A DNA stretch of 64,000 nt, taken from the NCBI RefSeq assembly GCF_009914755.1, contig NC_060926.1, one strand, 5' to 3'. The notes below the pieces were generated by a model. That model saw only the letters and a list, made by a program, of their open reading frames with translations, was not told the origin of the DNA and did no database searches. The translations under genes and the position numbers were made by a program. Shown piece after piece: positions 21,101-27,100 of this stretch. The stretch comes from the human T2T-CHM13v2.0 reference genome, Homo sapiens. Each line of letters starts with the position of its first letter. Position 1 is the first letter of the stretch.

Positions 21101-24100
21101 CCTGGGAGATGAGTGAGACTTTGGTGGAAGGGAGTGGGTGGTATCAGGTCTGTGGCCCACCCCCTGGAAGGCTCCTCTCTGTCCTCAAAGGTCAGGGCTG
21201 TGCTTAGTCTGGGGTTGCCAGGCTAGGGGTTCTCCACCTGGGGTGGGAAAGGTCATAATCACTGTCTCACACACCTCCCCCTGAGGCTTCGACTGTTGTT
21301 GCTTCTTCTGGCCACTGGATGCCGCGTAGACAGGGCCTGGCACACAGCTCACCACTGCAGGGCCCCCCCCAGGGCACCTGGCGGTGTCATTGGCACGATA
21401 GAACTCCAGGGAACAGAGGGAGAGGTGGGCCTCCGTGCCCACGCACGCCACCCCATGCAGACCAAAGGAGTGTTGCTGCCGTTGGGCTAGCAGCCTAGGG
21501 GGACAGGAGTGAGGTGCAGTAGGGTAAAACAATGCTCCTGCCTCTTGGCCCCACAAACATCCTCCCACTTCATGCCTCCACCATGCCCCCCACCCTTTTG
21601 TGACCATTTATCTCCTCTTCTTCCCCCTTCCATGTTTCCCTCGGGAGATACATGGGGATTGCTGAGTTTCCAGGCTGAGGGAGCCTCAACTACCCAGATA
21701 GGAGGGGCCTTGGGGACCTCCTGCAGTAGAACAACCTTAAGAGAAGGATGGCTAGTCTCGACTTGCCTGGAAGAAACTGTTCCAAGTGGTTTCAGGCTGC
21801 TGGCCCTAAAGGAGGCTGAGGCTAAGGCCTCAGGGAAGGGGAAACCAGGACTTTCCAGTTGGAAGAAATGGCCAGGAGGGAGTGGCTGACACAGGAAGCC
21901 TGAAAAGCCAGGGCGAGCAAGTCCTTCTGTGATGCTGAGACTGGAATAACTGAATGAGTCAGGATGCAAAGGACTAAGGAAGTCTCCCATCTCCATAGCT
22001 CCGCAGAGGCCAGAGACTCTGCAGGACAGATTAGGAGGGGCAGATGCAGCAAGAACAGACCAGCAGGTAGACGCAAGAAAAACTGGGACTGGCATATGCA
22101 AGAATGAAGATGTATAAATGCAGGACAGGTCAAAGTTTGAGGGAATAAATGACCAGAGAAAGGAGATGGATGTGAACAACAAAATGGCAAAGACATCCCA
22201 GGACCTGTGCTGTGTAAGTCTTTAAAAAGGCAGTCCATGCTTCTGCAATTTCAACGTAACAGTGTCCCAAAGCCATCTGAATAGGATAATGGGACTGAAC
22301 TATAGATGCTAAGGCTTGGAAATGCTGCCGAGATGTTTGAGAGAATGGGGGGACTTCTTTATCGATACCAGTAGAATGAGAGGCTGCAGTGAGGCACGTG
22401 CCAGAGTGAAGTACACTCTGCCCGCAGAGAAAGGGAAGAAAATGAGGTCTGGTGCTGGTGGAACGGGCCTGTGAGGCTGATGTAGTCATGCATTATTGCA
22501 ATAATGTGCCCTATCACTTGATGTCAGAGGAAGGATGGAATATGATGACTTGAAGCCATTGGCTAGGAAGACACAGGAGGAGGAAAAGTTTATACACAAA
22601 ACAGACAAAGGAAGCCTGGAGACTTTACAGAATACCTTTGGAAGCTCAGGATAAATGGATCCTGAAGATCTAAGAGATCAGGCACTCTCCCACAGTCCTG
22701 TTTGGCTGAAAGTAAAAGTCAAGGAGCCCATCACAGGAAAAATACATCTATCTTCTAAACATCCTCATTCCCGTTGTCTACAATGAACAAAATAAAAATG
22801 GCAGTGTGTACTTTAATGTGCAGGTCAGGGAAGGCTAGAGTGTGGCCATGTTGGGCAAAGATGACCCTAAGCTAGAAGGGCACTACAAGAACATCCCCAA
22901 ATTTCTGAGATCCTTTGAAACCACCAGAGAAGCTGGGGAATGAGGGCTATGAGGGGACCACTGGGTGAGACTAGAACTTGTTGAGAACAGGAGGGGAGAA
23001 AGGGATGAATTATCGATACTTCAGTCCCTCTTGAAGTTATCAGGGAGACTTTTAATGTGCAAACTGCCTTTTGAAGACAAGTTAGATGTAATTACAGGGG
23101 TTGGAAGCTTCCCACTTCGAGTTCTAAAGGATCCCAGGAGGAAAATTAGGGAACTGGGAGCCTAATTGTGGAAAATGAGCCAGAGAGGCAGGGGCTGTCA
23201 ATCTGACTGCATTCCTGGTAAAGGTTCCAAAGGGGACGCTGAGTTTCCCTCCATCTCGAGTAAGCTGGTAGCACTTATTTTTAACAACTAATCAAATAAA
23301 GCATTTGATTTGGGAACACTGATCCTTTAGGCAAATGTAACCTCTTACAGGAGACGCAAGTATGGCGTCTGAAAGAGAAAAGCACCATGTTGTCTCCTGG
23401 AACTCAGCAGGGGAAGATAAGTAAACATGTGGAACGAGGTAGTCAGTGAGTGAAAAAACAAATCCTAGGACAAGCATCATTCCTGAGACCAAGGTAAGGA
23501 CCAGTCTTGCGTAACACTTCAGTAAATGCCCTGGAAGGTGATTTCTAAGAGCTGCTGCTGCTCCTCCTCTTGGTCAGCTCTTTCAGCCACAAAGGCCTCC
23601 TGGACCCCCTCCCTCCCTGGCCACAGCCGAGTAACTCCATGCTCCCTCTCCTTTCCACCCAACCTGAATTTTATTTACCTCTTGTGTGGCCCCCTGACCA
23701 CTCGGGGTTTGGGTTTGACTTTAAGCTTGGTGATTGGTCCGCAAAAAGGAGAAGGAAGTTGGTAGAGGTAGTGGTTACATATGTGGCGCAGGAAAGGTAC
23801 AGGGTTATTTTTCTGTTTCTGGGAAAGACCCTTTGTGGGCAGCATGGGGATGGGAAAAATGAAGATTTTCCGCATCCACCGTCTGCTGAACACCATTGAA
23901 CTGCATTTCAGGAACTCATGCTGCTCTCTGGATTCAGCAACAGTAATGGGAAATCTAGCGATGTCAATCCAGGTGGGGGAGTTGGGAAGGGGAGAAGGGA
24001 AGAGGAAAGGTGGAGAGGGGAGAGAATGGGAATGTGGGTGAACTAAGGGAGGTGATGGAGGGGGCAGGAAGGAGGAAGAATGAAGGTGGCTGAGGCTGGA

Positions 24101-27100
24101 ATCCAAGCTATTTGGGGTAGGTGTAAAGATGGGAGGCTTCTCAGCCACTCCTACATTACTTCCTCCTTGTGTTCCCTAAGATCAAAGCTTGCCCATCCCC
24201 ATGCCTGCTCCCTTCACCTCCCTGCAGGAAAAGCCATTTTCCTCACATCCCTAATCCATCAGCTTGGGTTCTGGGATGGACATGGATGGCTGCCATCCAT
24301 CCATCCACCTCCTGGGGCCGCAGGGCGAGCAGGAGGTCCCGGGGCTCTTGCCCCATACCTTCCAAGGGGCTTGGGGTGTCGGGCTGAGACCTTGGCCGCT
24401 CGCTTCCTCAACTTTCTGTGAGGATAAGACAACAGTAGTCAGGGTTAGTGTAGAACCAAGTGGAAAAGCTGGTGCAACTAGGACCAGGGGCAAGATTTCT
24501 CTTCTAGCAGTCCGAAGGCTTCCTGGTGGCAGGATATTATAACAGCAGACACTCCTGAGACCCGAGCTTTCTTTTTTCTTTTTTTTGTATTTTTAGTAGA
24601 GATGGGGTTTCACTATGTTGGCTAGGCTGGTCTCGAACTCCTGACCTTGTGATCCACCCGTCTTGGCCTCCCAAAGTGTTGGGATTACAGGCGTGAGCCA
24701 CCGCACCTGGCTGAGACCCAAGCTTTCATAGCTGCTTGGCCTCTTCAGCACATGACCAGGTGGGTGAGCAGAAGTGAAGGCCGTGGACTCAGGACGGTGC
24801 CCCCATGCCAGCACCCTCAGAAATTAGCTAGGGCAGATGGCAAGTAAGGACTCCTGAGTCCAGATGTTAGTGCTAAACCTCAGTGGAGGGCTAAGGGGAG
24901 CATCGTTAGGATTGTTAAGATTGCCAGACTGACCAGGCTAGGCGGCAGAACTAGCCTGAGTCAGGCCTAGGGAGGCTACTGTGTCTTTTTTTCCTGGATG
25001 CTCTCTTTGAGAAAGACTCTGGCATTGTTCAGGCCTGAGGCCGCTGGACCAGGACCAAGAACCAAGGCCGAATATCCAAGGGCGTTAACTTGGTTTGACT
25101 GGGGAACACAGGCCAGGCTCCTTACAATGACACCACCCTTCCTGCTGAAGTTCCAATCCCATATGCTGTGGTCATTCACAAACTGAGTTCATCTCCCAAA
25201 CTTACTTCCAGGGAAATAAATAATTTTTCCTTTTTTTTTTTTTTGGTCTTTGAGACAGGGTTACTCTGTCACCCAGGCTGCAGTGAGCCATGGTGCAACC
25301 ATGGCTCACTGCAGCCTTATCTCCTGGGCTCAAGTGATTCTCCCACCTCAGCCTTCTGAATCGCTGGGACCACAGGTGTGCACCATCATGACTGGCTAAT
25401 ATTTGTTAGAAGCAGGGTCTCACTATGTTGTCCAGGCTGGTCTCATCTCAAACTTCTGAGCCCAAGCTATCCTCCTGCCTTGGCCTCCCAAAGTGCTGGG
25501 ATAACAGGCATGAGCCACTGAGCCCAGCCTTAGTTGTCCTTTCTTTGAACATGTTCCTGCTCCGCTGTTTCTCTTGAGGAGTCATATTTCAACATAGTAC
25601 AGCTGGCCTTCCATATCCATGGGCTCTGCATCTGTAGATTCAACCTCCATCTGTACTGAACACGTACCAACTTTTTTTCTTGTCATTATTCCCTAAGCAA
25701 TAAAATATAACAACTACTTATGTAGCATTTACATTATGTTAGGTATTATAAGTAATCTAGAGATGATTTAAAGCATACAGAGGATGTGCATAGGTTATAT
25801 GCAAATACTATAGCATTTTATATCAGGGACTTGAGCATCTTTGAATTGTGGTATCCTTGGGAGATCCTAGAACCAATCCCCCATGGTTACTGAGGGATGA
25901 CTGTTTAATGTGTGAAGACACCTTGGGATTTAAATATACGTATATATTTTAAACCAGTCAGAAGCTGTTTGATATTTTCTGCCTCAGCTTCTTCCTGAGG
26001 ATGTACTTAGTTGGTCTCTTTGCCAAAGTGTCCAAAGTGTTGGACATTCCTGGCAAAGAATATACAACTCTCAGGTCCCTTTACTGAGACATTGCTAATA
26101 GTTAGACTCTTTCATCTTATAAATATGGTGTGAAATTTTTTCTCCAAATGTCTTTTTCTCAAACATGTCTAAAATGTCTAAAATGAAATACACTTGGCCT
26201 CTTCACCAATCAACCTGGAGAGTTCACCTTGATCTCCAGAGTAGTACTAAAACATTTTGGTATTATCTAGAAATTTAGAAGTACCTCTTCTCTAAATTAT
26301 TTAAGGACCTTATATCAACAGGTCTTTGTATTATTTATATATATATATACACAAACATATGTAATCTTATTTCATATTTATATAAAAGAGTTTAGACCCT
26401 TTTATCTTATAAATATTTTATATATAAAATTATATATAAGTTATGTTAAGGACTTTGTCCTCATTGAGGACCAGTGCTGTTATTTGTCTTGATTTAAATT
26501 TCTTCATTCACAGATGTGTTTGTTTCCACCTACCATTTGTTCCTTCCTTCAGCCATCAAACATAAAAACCTATGTAGGCCAGGGGCAGCGGCTTACGCCT
26601 GTAATCCCAGCACTTTGGGAGGCTGAGGCAGGAGGACTGCTTGAGCCCAGAAGTTTGAGACCAGCCTGGGCAACACAGTGAGACCTCGTCTCTACAAAAA
26701 ATTTAAAAATTAGCCAGGTGTGGTGGCTCGAGCCTGTAGTTCCAGCTACTCAGGAGGCTGAGATGGGATGATCGCTTGAGCCCAAGAGGTCGAGGTTGCA
26801 GTGAGCCATGATGGCGCCACTGCACTCTGGCCTGGTCAACATAGAGAGACCCTGTCTCAAAAACAAGGAATCAAACAAACAAACAAACAAACAAAGAAAA
26901 AACCCAAAACAAAAACCTGTCTACATTTGCATATCCTCTTCTCATACCTTTCAACTATTTTTCTTCTCTAAGTCTACTGTACCTAAATGTTTCTAAATTC
27001 CATCTCTTACAATTTTTCTCAGTCCTGCATACCATTTCTTTTTCTCAACTGAATCCTTTTAAACATTCAAATCACTCCTACACATGCACACACACACACA

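What the first reader, a model, noticed from the sequence alone, without database searches (positions are those of the whole stretch)
21694..24415. Candidate battery of frame-preserving micro-exons in LOXL3 intron 4 that would insert into SRCR domain 2
Seen: the 12.4-kb intron 21495-33934 is phase 2 (TAC AG|G CTG). Most of it is crowded with Alu/L2, but the ~3 kb nearest exon 5 has no recognisable Alu. That stretch holds up to five short segments with splice-like flanks, each a multiple of 3, stop-free in the phase-2 frame and starting with a reconstituted Arg: 24359-24415 (57 nt, [18 protein letters not shown]), 23679-23738 (60 nt, [19 protein letters not shown]), 23342-23368 (27 nt, RHTCVSCK), 21767-21805 (39 nt, [12 protein letters not shown]) and 21694-21720 (27 nt, RSPRPLLS). 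Four end in AG before the donor, two share KPLG, and most are K/R/P-rich. Inference: a combinatorial cassette system, partly decayed in human, that tunes a basic loop of SRCR2 (heparan sulfate/ECM binding, convertase cleavage or nuclear import). From memory, the paralog LOXL4 has an extra basic segment at a similar point in SRCR2; this needs checking by alignment. Some exons may already appear in predicted isoforms.
Basis: partly seen in the sequence, partly recalled or inferred. Interest (0 to 1): 0.8.

Follow-up and report, generated by a model that had tools for sequence, protein, structure and literature searches.

The report
Ancient basic cassette exons in LOXL3
Two of the five proposed mini-exons in this human LOXL3 intron match a very old pair of optional exons that add a positively charged loop to the protein in fish, birds and other mammals, while the other three look like chance.

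Summary
As a set they are not unusual. The same 3.2 kb holds 115 in-frame, stop-free AG..GT segments of 21-63 nt, and with splice-score filters the count equals shuffled sequence.

Two are nevertheless real. Predicted LOXL3 proteins of other vertebrates carry insertions at exactly the exon 4/5 junction. These are homologous to 24359-24415 (exon A, 57 nt) and 23679-23738 (exon B, 60 nt), with the same boundaries. Of 102 LOXL3-type junctions examined, 82 carry A, B or both. Takifugu flavidus gene models show all four combinations.

In human, exon A keeps a branch point, a pyrimidine tract, AG and a strong GT donor. Exon B keeps its frame, tract and donor but has GG where the acceptor AG should be.

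Candidates 3-5 have no cross-species support as cassettes. The LOXL4 idea fails: LOXL2, LOXL3 and LOXL4 have equal spacing at this junction.

The function, a polybasic heparin/matrix-binding loop in SRCR2, is inferred and untested. Human RefSeq and the LOXL3 papers I could search do not mention these exons. I saw no RNA evidence.

The parts
33935..34149 (-). LOXL3 exon 4 (annotated). It ends ..TTC TAC AG|gtgagg, so the intron is phase 2. It encodes the first half of SRCR2.
   Evidence: Pfam SRCR PF00530, E 7.2e-10, profile positions 7-45 of 100.
24416..24450 (-). Acceptor region of exon A. It has CTAAC and CTGAC branch-point-like motifs at -30 and -24, 13 of 17 pyrimidines at -20..-4, a cag acceptor, and no AG between the branch motifs and the acceptor.
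   Evidence: Acceptor PWM 11.1, the 67th percentile of 54 annotated acceptors in the window.
24359..24415 (-). Exon A, 57 nt, phase 2-2. It would insert [18 protein letters not shown] plus a re-formed Arg. It is the human orthologue of the first basic cassette exon of vertebrate LOXL3. All its splice signals are intact, and it is not in the RefSeq table given for this window.
   Evidence: for the translation; donor AAG|gtatgg scores 9.3, the 77th percentile. tblastn of the bat, deer and mouse-like insertions lands on 24358-24417 at 84-90% identity, E 4e-8 to 6e-7. Pteropus, Manis and Cricetulus models carry an 18-residue insertion plus Arg at the same junction.
23739..23740 (-). GG where the acceptor AG of exon B should be. 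The rest of the acceptor is strong: 16 of 17 pyrimidines.
   Evidence: The score without the AG positions is 9.5, the 80th percentile of annotated acceptors.
23679..23738 (-). Exon B, 60 nt, phase 2-2. Its open frame reads [19 protein letters not shown] plus Arg, and it has a good donor GAG|gtaaat. It is the human orthologue of the second basic cassette exon and probably cannot be spliced in this genome, because the acceptor AG is missing.
   Evidence: tblastn of the Glossophaga, Artibeus, Apodemus and Loxodonta insertions lands on 23681-23737 at 64-79% identity, E 1e-6 to 2e-4. B-only models insert 19 residues plus Arg, which equals 60 nt.
21275..21494 (-). LOXL3 exon 5 (annotated). It starts G CTG CTA.. 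and encodes the second half of SRCR2.
23342..23368 (-). Candidate 3, 27 nt. It has an AG acceptor and a weak gttaca donor. No homologous insertion was found in any LOXL3 examined. Read as a chance pseudo-exon.
   Evidence: the donor is at the 4th percentile; none of 102 junctions carries it.
21767..21805 (-). Candidate 4, 39 nt, with a GC donor. It is not a cassette in any model. Its homologous sequence is read through inside a predicted alternative first exon of the finless porpoise.
21694..21720 (-). Candidate 5, 27 nt, weak at both sites. It is not a cassette in any model. The porpoise alternative first exon appears to end at the equivalent donor.

Best explanation
Segments 24359-24415 (exon A) and 23679-23738 (exon B) are the human copies of an ancient pair of optional cassette exons of vertebrate LOXL3. 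Both are phase 2-2, so either, both or neither can be included without changing the frame, and each inclusion re-forms the Arg/Lys codon at the junction. Each adds 18-24 residues rich in Lys and Arg at about position 50 of the 100-position SRCR profile, inside SRCR2. In the one model I made, this point lies between two predicted strands and has low confidence.

Shown here: homology, identical boundaries, alternative use in gene models of other species, and the state of the human signals. Human exon A keeps every core splice signal and 16 of 18 residues of the placental consensus, so it is probably still spliceable. Human exon B keeps its frame, pyrimidine tract and donor but has GG for AG at the acceptor, so it is probably out of use. 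The other three segments are chance pseudo-exons.

Inferred, not shown: the included exons give LOXL3 a flexible polybasic loop. The junction forms a Tyr-basic-basic-hydrophobic-basic-basic motif of the heparin-binding type, which would change retention on heparan sulfate or matrix. I put about 0.4 on that function and about 0.5 on human exon A being included at a measurable level in some tissue.
For: - Boundaries and frames.
- Exon A is the only 21-63 nt pair in the 12.4-kb intron with both PWM scores at or above the median of annotated sites. It is one of only 2 unannotated rows among the 8 rows in 128 kb (both strands) at its score level.
- In (28 hits; 120 listed of 1598), 128 distinct proteins were fetched. 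I excluded 26 of them: DMBT1-like proteins, short ORFs, a LOXL2/4-like protein, and a model lacking exon 4.
- The remaining 102 LOXL3-type junctions split as 20 with no insertion, 6 with A only, 9 with B only, and 67 with A plus a second exon. Of those 67, 66 are B-like and 1 (deer) is a different exon.
- Takifugu flavidus models on one contig show both exons, A only, B only and neither, with lengths of 846, 827, 827 and 808 residues.
- Placental peptides are close to human: exon A 84-90% and exon B 64-79%. Other model-specific pieces from the same intron score 36-73%.
- Insertions are strongly basic: median net charge +12, or 0.30 per residue, over 82 insertions.
- The Y-[KR]-(x)-[LIVF]-[KRT]-[KR] motif is present in 68 of the 71 A-bearing junctions recognised by the pattern.
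- Location in SRCR2. In the AlphaFold model of the bat A+B isoform, residues 232-280 have pLDDT below 50 and lie between strands 221-223 and 280-286.
Against: - I could see no RNA evidence for human or any other species. All insertions come from gene models, many of them automatic.
- The RefSeq table supplied with the finding lists 7 human LOXL3 transcripts and no exon inside this intron.
- Two spliced, unnamed sequences lack both exons: P0002, which is human-identical, and P0020, which is mouse-like.
- All 4 marsupial, both monotreme and all 6 named primate sequences examined lack both exons.
- The 82 of 102 figure is inflated, because the query contained both exons and only the top 120 of 1598 hits were listed. 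Clustering at 90% identity also hides isoforms.
- Exon B similarity between mammals and fish rests on position, length and composition, not on sequence. Non-mammal queries gave E of 0.25 or higher on the human intron.
- The structure model is poor overall: mean pLDDT 50, and below 30 in the catalytic domain.
- Nothing here tests heparin binding.
Confidence: 0.8

Rival explanations
1. The cassette exons are real in other vertebrates, but both human copies are retired relics. Exon B is dead through its acceptor, and exon A, though intact on paper, is never included. On this reading the human gene makes only the short form.
For: - No exon in this intron appears among the 7 RefSeq transcripts in the supplied table.
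- The human-identical spliced sequence P0002 and all named primate sequences lack both exons.
- Human exon A differs from the placental consensus at 2 of 18 residues, and exon B at 4-5 of 19.
- Exon B has lost its AG.
Against: - Exon A keeps a branch point, tract, AG and donor at the 67th and 77th percentiles of annotated sites, and its frame is open.
- Exon B still has an intact frame and signals apart from one base, which argues for recent rather than old disuse.
- Absence from annotation is weak evidence for a tissue-restricted 57-nt exon.
Confidence: 0.3
2. All five segments are chance pseudo-exons. The insertions in other species' models are annotation artefacts copied from one species to another by homology.
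For: - There are 115 comparable segments in 3.2 kb, and the counts with score filters equal shuffles.
- Most supporting proteins are automatic predictions.
Against: - The insertions differ in sequence between fish, amphibians, reptiles, birds and mammals, yet keep place, phase, length class and basic character. Copying would not give that pattern.
- Models from several pipelines and sources agree.
- Human DNA encodes the placental peptides at 84-90% and 64-79% identity, without stops or frameshifts, in an intron where other model-specific pieces score 36-73%.
Confidence: 0.04
3. The exons are real, but the basic loop works as a proprotein-convertase cleavage site or a nuclear import signal rather than as a glycosaminoglycan/matrix anchor.
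For: - A dibasic [KR]-R followed by a small residue is present in 68 of 71 A-bearing junctions.
- Birds and reptiles have R-[LF]-K-R.
- LOXL3 is reported in the nucleus, and a bipartite signal at residues 293-311 is described (passages of PMC6678131).
Against: - The strict R-x-[KR]-R pattern is found in only 11 of 71 junctions and not in human or other mammals, where the fourth residue before the site is Leu.
- The protein carries a signal peptide, so a nuclear signal inside a disulfide-rich secreted domain would rarely meet importins. That point rests on general knowledge.
- Exon B has no such motif, yet it is equally basic.
Confidence: 0.2

Closest known systems
Predicted LOXL3 isoforms of other vertebrates. 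Examples: Artibeus jamaicensis X1, Glossophaga mutica 2-T2, Pteropus alecto, Manis pentadactyla X3, Loxodonta africana X3, Gallus gallus X6, Takifugu flavidus X1-X6, and loxl3a/loxl3b of many fish.
   Same: Same junction, same phase and same exon lengths in placentals (57 and 60 nt). The peptides are homologous, and the combinations both, A only, B only and none are all seen.
   Different: Human RefSeq (the table given with the finding) has no such isoform. Human exon B lacks the acceptor AG. Fish and bird exons differ in sequence and slightly in length.
Published LOXL3 splice variants LOXL3-sv1 and LOXL3-sv2
   Same: They affect the same part of the gene. sv1 skips exon 5 and sv2 skips exons 4 and 5, which removes SRCR2 (passages of PMC6678131 and PMC12619944).
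   Different: Those variants are exon skipping or an alternative promoter. The present exons are inclusions that lengthen SRCR2. Neither review mentions them in the passages I read.
Alternatively spliced basic heparin/matrix-retention exons of secreted factors: VEGF-A exons 6 and 7, the PlGF-2 insert, PDGF-A exon 6, and the agrin basic insert. These are recalled from general knowledge and were not checked here.
   Same: A short optional exon, very rich in Lys and Arg, in a secreted matrix-related protein. The junction motif is of the X-B-B-X-B-X type.
   Different: There is no sequence relationship. Here the insert sits inside a folded SRCR domain rather than at a tail. Binding to heparin is untested.
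Intronic pseudo-exons (chance AG..GT pairs)
   Same: Candidates 3, 4 and 5 behave like these. They have weak or non-canonical sites and no orthologous use, and they match the expected background count.
   Different: Exons A and B are separated from this class by their cross-species conservation.

Membership tests
Orthologue of the vertebrate LOXL3 cassette exons A and B | Insertion exactly at the exon 4/5 junction, phase 2 on both sides | tested here: met
   for human; the insertions lie between ..FY[KR] and the 17 residues before C-x-G-T-E in 82 of 102 junctions.
Orthologue of the vertebrate LOXL3 cassette exons A and B | Peptide homology with identical exon boundaries | tested here: met
   exon A at 84-90% identity, E 4e-8 to 6e-7; exon B at 64-79%, E 1e-6 to 2e-4. 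A-only and B-only models give 19 and 20 codons, equal to 57 and 60 nt.
Functional cassette exon in human | Canonical AG acceptor and GT donor | tested here: inconclusive
   Exon A: met, and both sites are strong. Exon B: not met, with GG at the acceptor.
Functional cassette exon in human | Junction reads or cDNA showing inclusion | not testable with these tools
   No RNA data are available here. The supplied RefSeq table shows no exon in the intron.
Micro-exon (27 nt or less, or 51 nt or less in wider usage; definitions recalled) | Exon length | tested here: not met
   The two supported exons are 57 and 60 nt. The two 27-nt candidates have no support.
Alternatively spliced heparin/matrix-retention exon | Dense Lys/Arg content and an X-B-B-X-B-type motif | tested here: met
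   Median net charge is +12 per insertion, or 0.30 per residue, over 82 insertions. The loose motif is present in 68 of 71 and the strict Y-B-B-hydrophobic-B in 55 of 71. Human fits the strict form.
Alternatively spliced heparin/matrix-retention exon | Measured binding to heparin or heparan sulfate that depends on the exon | not testable with these tools
   This needs recombinant isoforms.
Proprotein convertase site | R-x-[KR]-R at the start of exon A | tested here: not met
   Found in 11 of 71 A-bearing junctions, mainly birds and reptiles. Absent in human and the other placentals.
SRCR domain (Pfam PF00530) as host of the insertion | Profile match on the flanking exons | tested here: met
   Exon 4 matches at E 7.2e-10, profile positions 7-45 of 100, ending 7 residues before the junction. 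Exon 5 alone gave no match at E 0.01 or lower.
   The intron place and phase are the same in all three human genes, and the first 17 residues after the junction align without a gap. LOXL4 and LOXL2 are 2 and 3 residues longer only in a later loop. No A- or B-like match was found in the LOXL2 or LOXL4 introns; the best E was about 0.1.

The most novel reading that the evidence does not exclude
Human LOXL3 still makes, in some tissue or stage, an unannotated isoform containing exon A. That isoform would give SRCR2 a heparan-sulfate-binding loop and change where the enzyme is retained. The AG-to-GG change at exon B would be a recent, primate- or human-lineage loss of the doubly basic form that vertebrates have kept since before the split of ray-finned fish and tetrapods. 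Exon A would then be a coding exon missed in variant interpretation for LOXL3 disease (Stickler syndrome, myopia, cleft palate).
Probability: 0.3. Interest if true: 0.7.

Novelty: new member of a known kind. Interest (0 to 1): 0.6.

Why it matters
LOXL3 is a disease gene, and reviews describe only two variants, both exon-skipping forms. This finding adds a deeply conserved, combinatorial pair of optional exons that put a strongly basic loop into SRCR2.

It gives a concrete and testable handle on how LOXL3 is targeted to matrix, or how its secreted and intracellular pools differ.

It also flags a 57-nt human coding exon that is absent from the annotation supplied here, and a neighbouring exon disabled by a single acceptor base in this human genome. 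That base change could be dated and checked for polymorphism.

Methodologically, two exons that a chance analysis of the sequence would have dismissed were rescued only by cross-species protein evidence.

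Tried and rejected
1. My first reading was that all five were chance pseudo-exons, based. 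I abandoned it for two of them.

2. I looked for a repeat origin of the shared KPLG. No repeat family covers both sites.

3. I tested for a coding relic or transposon in 21495-24700. Eight open frames of 113-244 residues gave no Pfam match below E 0.028, and both weak hits were under their cut-offs. The long open frames are explained by pyrimidine richness. The DNA is single-copy in the genome apart from one 43-nt match.

4. A search with only the 44-residue insertion region returned 2 proteins at E 0.01 or lower, because the query was too short for so large a database. I replaced it with a 271-residue region.

6. The structure prediction of the bat A+B isoform was of low quality (mean pLDDT 50). 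I use it only for the statement that the insertion is a low-confidence stretch between two strands. I ran no fold search on it.

7. Literature. These searches found no description of these exons:
- LOXL3 with 'splice variant'.
- A six-term search in which none of the 15 listed papers held LOXL3.
- 'cryptic exon', 0 papers.
- loxl3b + SRCR + isoform, 1 paper.
- 'heparin', listing only.
- 'cassette exon', 0 papers.
- 'exon inclusion', 3 papers. I read passages of only one of them, and it was unrelated.
- 'alternative splicing' + SRCR, 6 papers, listing only.
- loxl3b alone, 12 papers, listing only.
The supplement of PMC11632617 (cryptic poison exons) does not contain LOXL3. The LOXL3-sv2 paper is not held.

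Full report
**What the sequence shows**

LOXL3 lies on the minus strand.

Their flanks are uneven:
- 24359-24415 has ..tcctcacag|AAAG....GGAAG|gtatgg.
- 23679-23738 has ..tttttgcgg|ACCA....AAGAG|gtaaat, so there is no AG acceptor.
- 23342-23368 has a good acceptor but a gttaca donor.
- 21767-21805 has a GC donor (CAG|gcaagt).
- 21694-21720 has TGG|gtagtt.

I built position weight matrices from the 52 donors and 54 acceptors of the annotated exons in the window. On these, the first segment scores at the 67th (acceptor) and 77th (donor) percentile of real sites. The donors of the third and fifth score at the 4th percentile.

**Is the battery more than chance?**

On sequence alone it is not. The gene strand of 21495-24700 holds 468 AG..GT pairs of 21-63 nt, and 115 of them are multiples of three and stop-free in the entering phase. 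The opposite strand holds 96. Two hundred dinucleotide shuffles average 89 (SD 11.5), and 4 of the 200 reach 115.

With both sites at or above the 10th percentile of real sites, the count is 3 against 1.9 in shuffles. At or above the weakest canonical candidate it is 4 against 2.8.

Open frames are cheap here because the gene strand is pyrimidine-rich. Stop trinucleotides make up 0.032 of positions, against 0.055 in the rest of the intron. Frames of 244 and 166 residues stay open without any family match.

Ending in AG is part of the donor consensus. Starting with Arg needs only a purine. The shared KPLG is not part of any repeat.

One segment did stand out. 24359-24415 is the only 21-63 nt pair in the intron with both sites at or above the median of real sites; 32 of 200 shuffles of the 3.2 kb give such a pair in any frame, and 7 of 200 give one in frame and stop-free. 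At its own score level, both strands of the 64-kb window give eight rows. Six are annotated exons, and the other two are this segment and a segment inside a masked repeat. The matrices were trained on the annotated exons, so the comparison flatters those exons, not the candidate.

At this point my reading was chance pseudo-exons, with one good-looking one.

**What changed the reading**

I searched the large protein database with the exon 5 peptide, asking for longer proteins. This returned 28 hits, mostly mammalian LOXL3. I then extracted the stretch between a conserved anchor in exon 4 (VCGxxGFP) and one in exon 5 (C-x-G-T-E). It is 35 residues in human and in many sequences, but 54, 55, 74, 76 or 95 in others.

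- Pteropus alecto, Manis pentadactyla X3 and Cricetulus griseus insert [12 protein letters not shown][RH]PK[PF]L[GV] plus Arg.
- Glossophaga mutica and Loxodonta africana X3 insert PITKRKVKSKPRVGRGPIK or PATELKVKPKPQAGRDPIE plus Arg.
- Artibeus jamaicensis X1 has both in tandem.
- Apodemus speciosus has both plus a third piece upstream.
- Cervus elaphus X5 has the first plus a different 21-residue piece.

A-only and B-only insertions are 19 and 20 codons. That is exactly the 57 and 60 nt of the human segments, so the boundaries are the same.

**Breadth and combinatorial use**

A second search used a 271-residue region of the bat isoform. It gave 1598 hits, of which the best 120 were listed. 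Together, this made 128 distinct proteins.

I set aside 26 of them: DMBT1-like SRCR proteins, short ORFs that merely extend exon 5 into the intron, one LOXL2/4-like sturgeon protein, and the porpoise model that lacks exon 4.

The remaining 102 LOXL3-type junctions split as follows:

| Class | Count |
|---|---|
| No insertion | 20 |
| First exon (A) only | 6 |
| Second exon (B) only | 9 |
| A plus a second exon | 67 |

One search misfiled P0015 as A-only.

By group:

| Group | n | None | A only | B only | A+B | Other |
|---|---|---|---|---|---|---|
| Placentals | 17 | 9 | 3 | 2 | 2 | 1 (A plus another exon) |
| Marsupials | 4 | 4 | 0 | 0 | 0 | 0 |
| Monotremes | 2 | 2 | 0 | 0 | 0 | 0 |
| Birds | 14 | 2 | 0 | 3 | 9 | 0 |
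| Reptiles | 3 | 0 | 0 | 0 | 3 | 0 |
| Amphibians | 3 | 0 | 0 | 1 | 2 | 0 |
| Fish | 56 | 2 | 3 | 3 | 48 | 0 |
| Unnamed | 3 | 1 | 0 | 0 | 2 | 0 |

The group labels are my reading of the names.

Takifugu flavidus models from one contig show all four states: both (X1, X5, X6), A only (X2), B only (X3) and neither (X4). Their lengths of 846, 827, 827 and 808 differ by 19 residues per exon.

These proportions are biased upward. The query contained both exons, only the top 120 of 1598 hits were seen, and clustering at 90% identity hides isoforms. What they do show is that the pair exists in ray-finned fish (including sturgeon, paddlefish, bowfin and gar), amphibians, reptiles, birds and placentals, and that it is modelled as optional.

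**Homology to the human DNA**

I ran tblastn with the insertions against the human intron.

| Query | Lands at | Identity | E-value |
|---|---|---|---|
| Placental exon A | 24358-24417 | 84-90% | 4e-8 to 6e-7 |
| Placental exon B | 23681-23737 | 64-79% | 1e-6 to 2e-4 |

As an internal yardstick, other model-specific pieces from the same intron match human less well. The deer extra exon scores 55% at 22638-22703. The porpoise first exon scores 68% over 25 residues and 36% over 59 residues with two stops and a gap. The Apodemus extra piece scores 73% over 15 residues at 29100-29144.

Non-mammalian exon A finds the same human place only weakly (E 0.25-1.5), through the shared [KR]-L-[KR]-K-R-A-A-K core. 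Non-mammalian exon B is alike in place, length and composition only.

**State of the human copies**

Exon A is complete. It has CTAAC and CTGAC branch-point-like motifs at -30 and -24 with no intervening AG, 13 of 17 pyrimidines, cag, an open frame, and AAG|gtatgg. It differs from the commonest placental peptide at two positions, one of which is shared with pangolin and Apodemus.

Exon B has an open frame, a good donor and an excellent tract. It has 16 of 17 pyrimidines and scores at the 80th percentile of real acceptors when the AG positions are left out. However, it reads GG at 23739-23740, where the other mammals' models require the acceptor. The nearest upstream AGs would enter in the wrong phase; this is my own reading.

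The introns would be 9519, 620 and 2184 nt.

I cannot tell whether the GG is fixed, polymorphic, or shared with other primates.

**The other three segments**

None of the 102 junctions carries anything like [20 protein letters not shown] or RSPRPLLS as a cassette.

The finless porpoise isoform X1 (P0014) starts inside the intron. It reads through sequence homologous to candidates 4 and 5 in shifting frames, and appears to join exon 5 from the donor equivalent to that of candidate 5. In human the corresponding reading has stops. I take these three as chance pseudo-exons.

**Paralogues**

The exon 4 and exon 5 peptides find two other places in the genome, on contigs 10 and 8. By position and similarity these are LOXL4 and LOXL2; the names are my inference.

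Both have the intron at the same codon and phase: TAC AG|gt .. ag|G CTG in the first, and TAC AA|gt .. ag|A ATG in the second. The first 17 residues after the junction align without gaps.

LOXL4 and LOXL2 are 2 and 3 residues longer only in a later loop, about 25 residues downstream. Their introns hold nothing resembling exon A or B; the best E was about 0.1.

The remembered 'extra basic segment in LOXL4 at a similar point' is not supported.

**Where the insert sits and what it may do**

Exon 4 matches Pfam SRCR positions 7-45 of 100 and ends seven residues later, so the junction is near profile position 52, in mid-domain.

An AlphaFold model of the bat A+B isoform, made from a 33-sequence alignment, is poor overall (mean pLDDT 50). 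It places residues 232-280 as a low-confidence stretch between strands 221-223 and 280-286, beginning with a short helix. This is weak support for a looped-out, flexible insert.

The insertions are strongly basic, with a median net charge of +12, or 0.30 per residue, over 82 insertions. With the last Tyr of exon 4 and the junction Arg/Lys, exon A forms Y-B-B-hydrophobic-B-B. The loose form is present in 68 of the 71 junctions recognised by my pattern, and the strict form in 55 of 71. Human fits the strict form. Two further A-like sequences, P0053 and P0060, were missed by the pattern.

This is the shape of the classical heparin-binding consensus, and it resembles the optional basic exons of VEGF-A, PlGF and PDGF-A. 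Both of those comparisons are recalled, not tested. I therefore favour a matrix/heparan-sulfate retention loop, at about 0.4.

A convertase site is less likely. R-x-[KR]-R occurs in only 11 of 71 junctions and not in mammals. A nuclear signal is possible but awkward inside a secreted, disulfide-rich domain.

None of these functions is tested here.

**Known or new?**

- The RefSeq table supplied with the finding lists seven human transcripts and no exon in this intron.
- Two LOXL3 reviews (passages read) list only sv1, which lacks exons 1-3 and 5, and sv2, which lacks exons 4 and 5 and so removes SRCR2.
- Ten full-text searches found no description of these exons. For most of them I saw only the listings.
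- One supplement look-up did not contain LOXL3.
- The original sv2 paper is not held. Subscription papers and GENCODE/Ensembl human models were out of reach.
- The exons are, however, present in public gene models of many other species.

The finding is therefore a new, apparently undescribed member of a familiar kind, not a new kind.

**Limits**

No RNA data, no genome alignments and no population data were available. Everything about use in human, tissue pattern, the age of the exon B lesion and function remains open.

Noticed in passing
window 22638-22703 (- strand): This is the human counterpart (55% identity, open frame, donor AAG|gtattc) of a 21-residue extra exon in the Cervus elaphus LOXL3 X5 model, which follows exon A in place of exon B. 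The human sequence has AA, not AG, where that exon would start. It is probably a lineage-specific exonisation or a model artefact.
   Followed up: partly
window 22673-22747 and 21711-21878 (- strand): These stretches are homologous to the intron-internal alternative first exon of the Neophocaena LOXL3 X1 model (P0014), whose predicted start Met falls at about 22747. The human reading has stops. It hints at an intronic promoter in some mammals.
   Followed up: partly
window 29100-29144 (- strand): A match (73% over 15 residues, E 0.002) to a third, upstream 20-residue piece found only in the Apodemus speciosus LOXL3 model. The same place also matches on the opposite strand, which suggests a palindromic or repeat-derived sequence.
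   Followed up: no
window 21490-22221 and 23678-24175 (- strand): Open frames of 244 and 166 residues inside the intron, with no Pfam match. They are explained by the pyrimidine-rich gene strand (GC skew up to 0.27 and AT skew up to 0.24 on the + strand; stop trinucleotide frequency 0.032).
   Followed up: yes
window 27318-27468 (+ strand): The only other unannotated segment in the window with splice-site scores as high as exon A. It lies in a stretch masked as a repeat, on the strand opposite to LOXL3.
   Followed up: no
M1AP, annotated exons in window 42449-61186 (- strand): One annotated M1AP intron uses a GC donor (GAG|gcaagt), nearly the same nine bases as the GC donor of candidate 4. A GC donor alone therefore does not disqualify a site.
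   Followed up: no
L003/L006/L009 (contig 10) and L004/L007/L008 (contig 8): The two human paralogues (taken to be LOXL4 and LOXL2) share the intron position and phase of LOXL3 intron 4. Their introns are about 1.7 and 7.4 kb, against 12.4 kb in LOXL3.
   Followed up: yes
The Alu label is my reading by eye.
   Followed up: no
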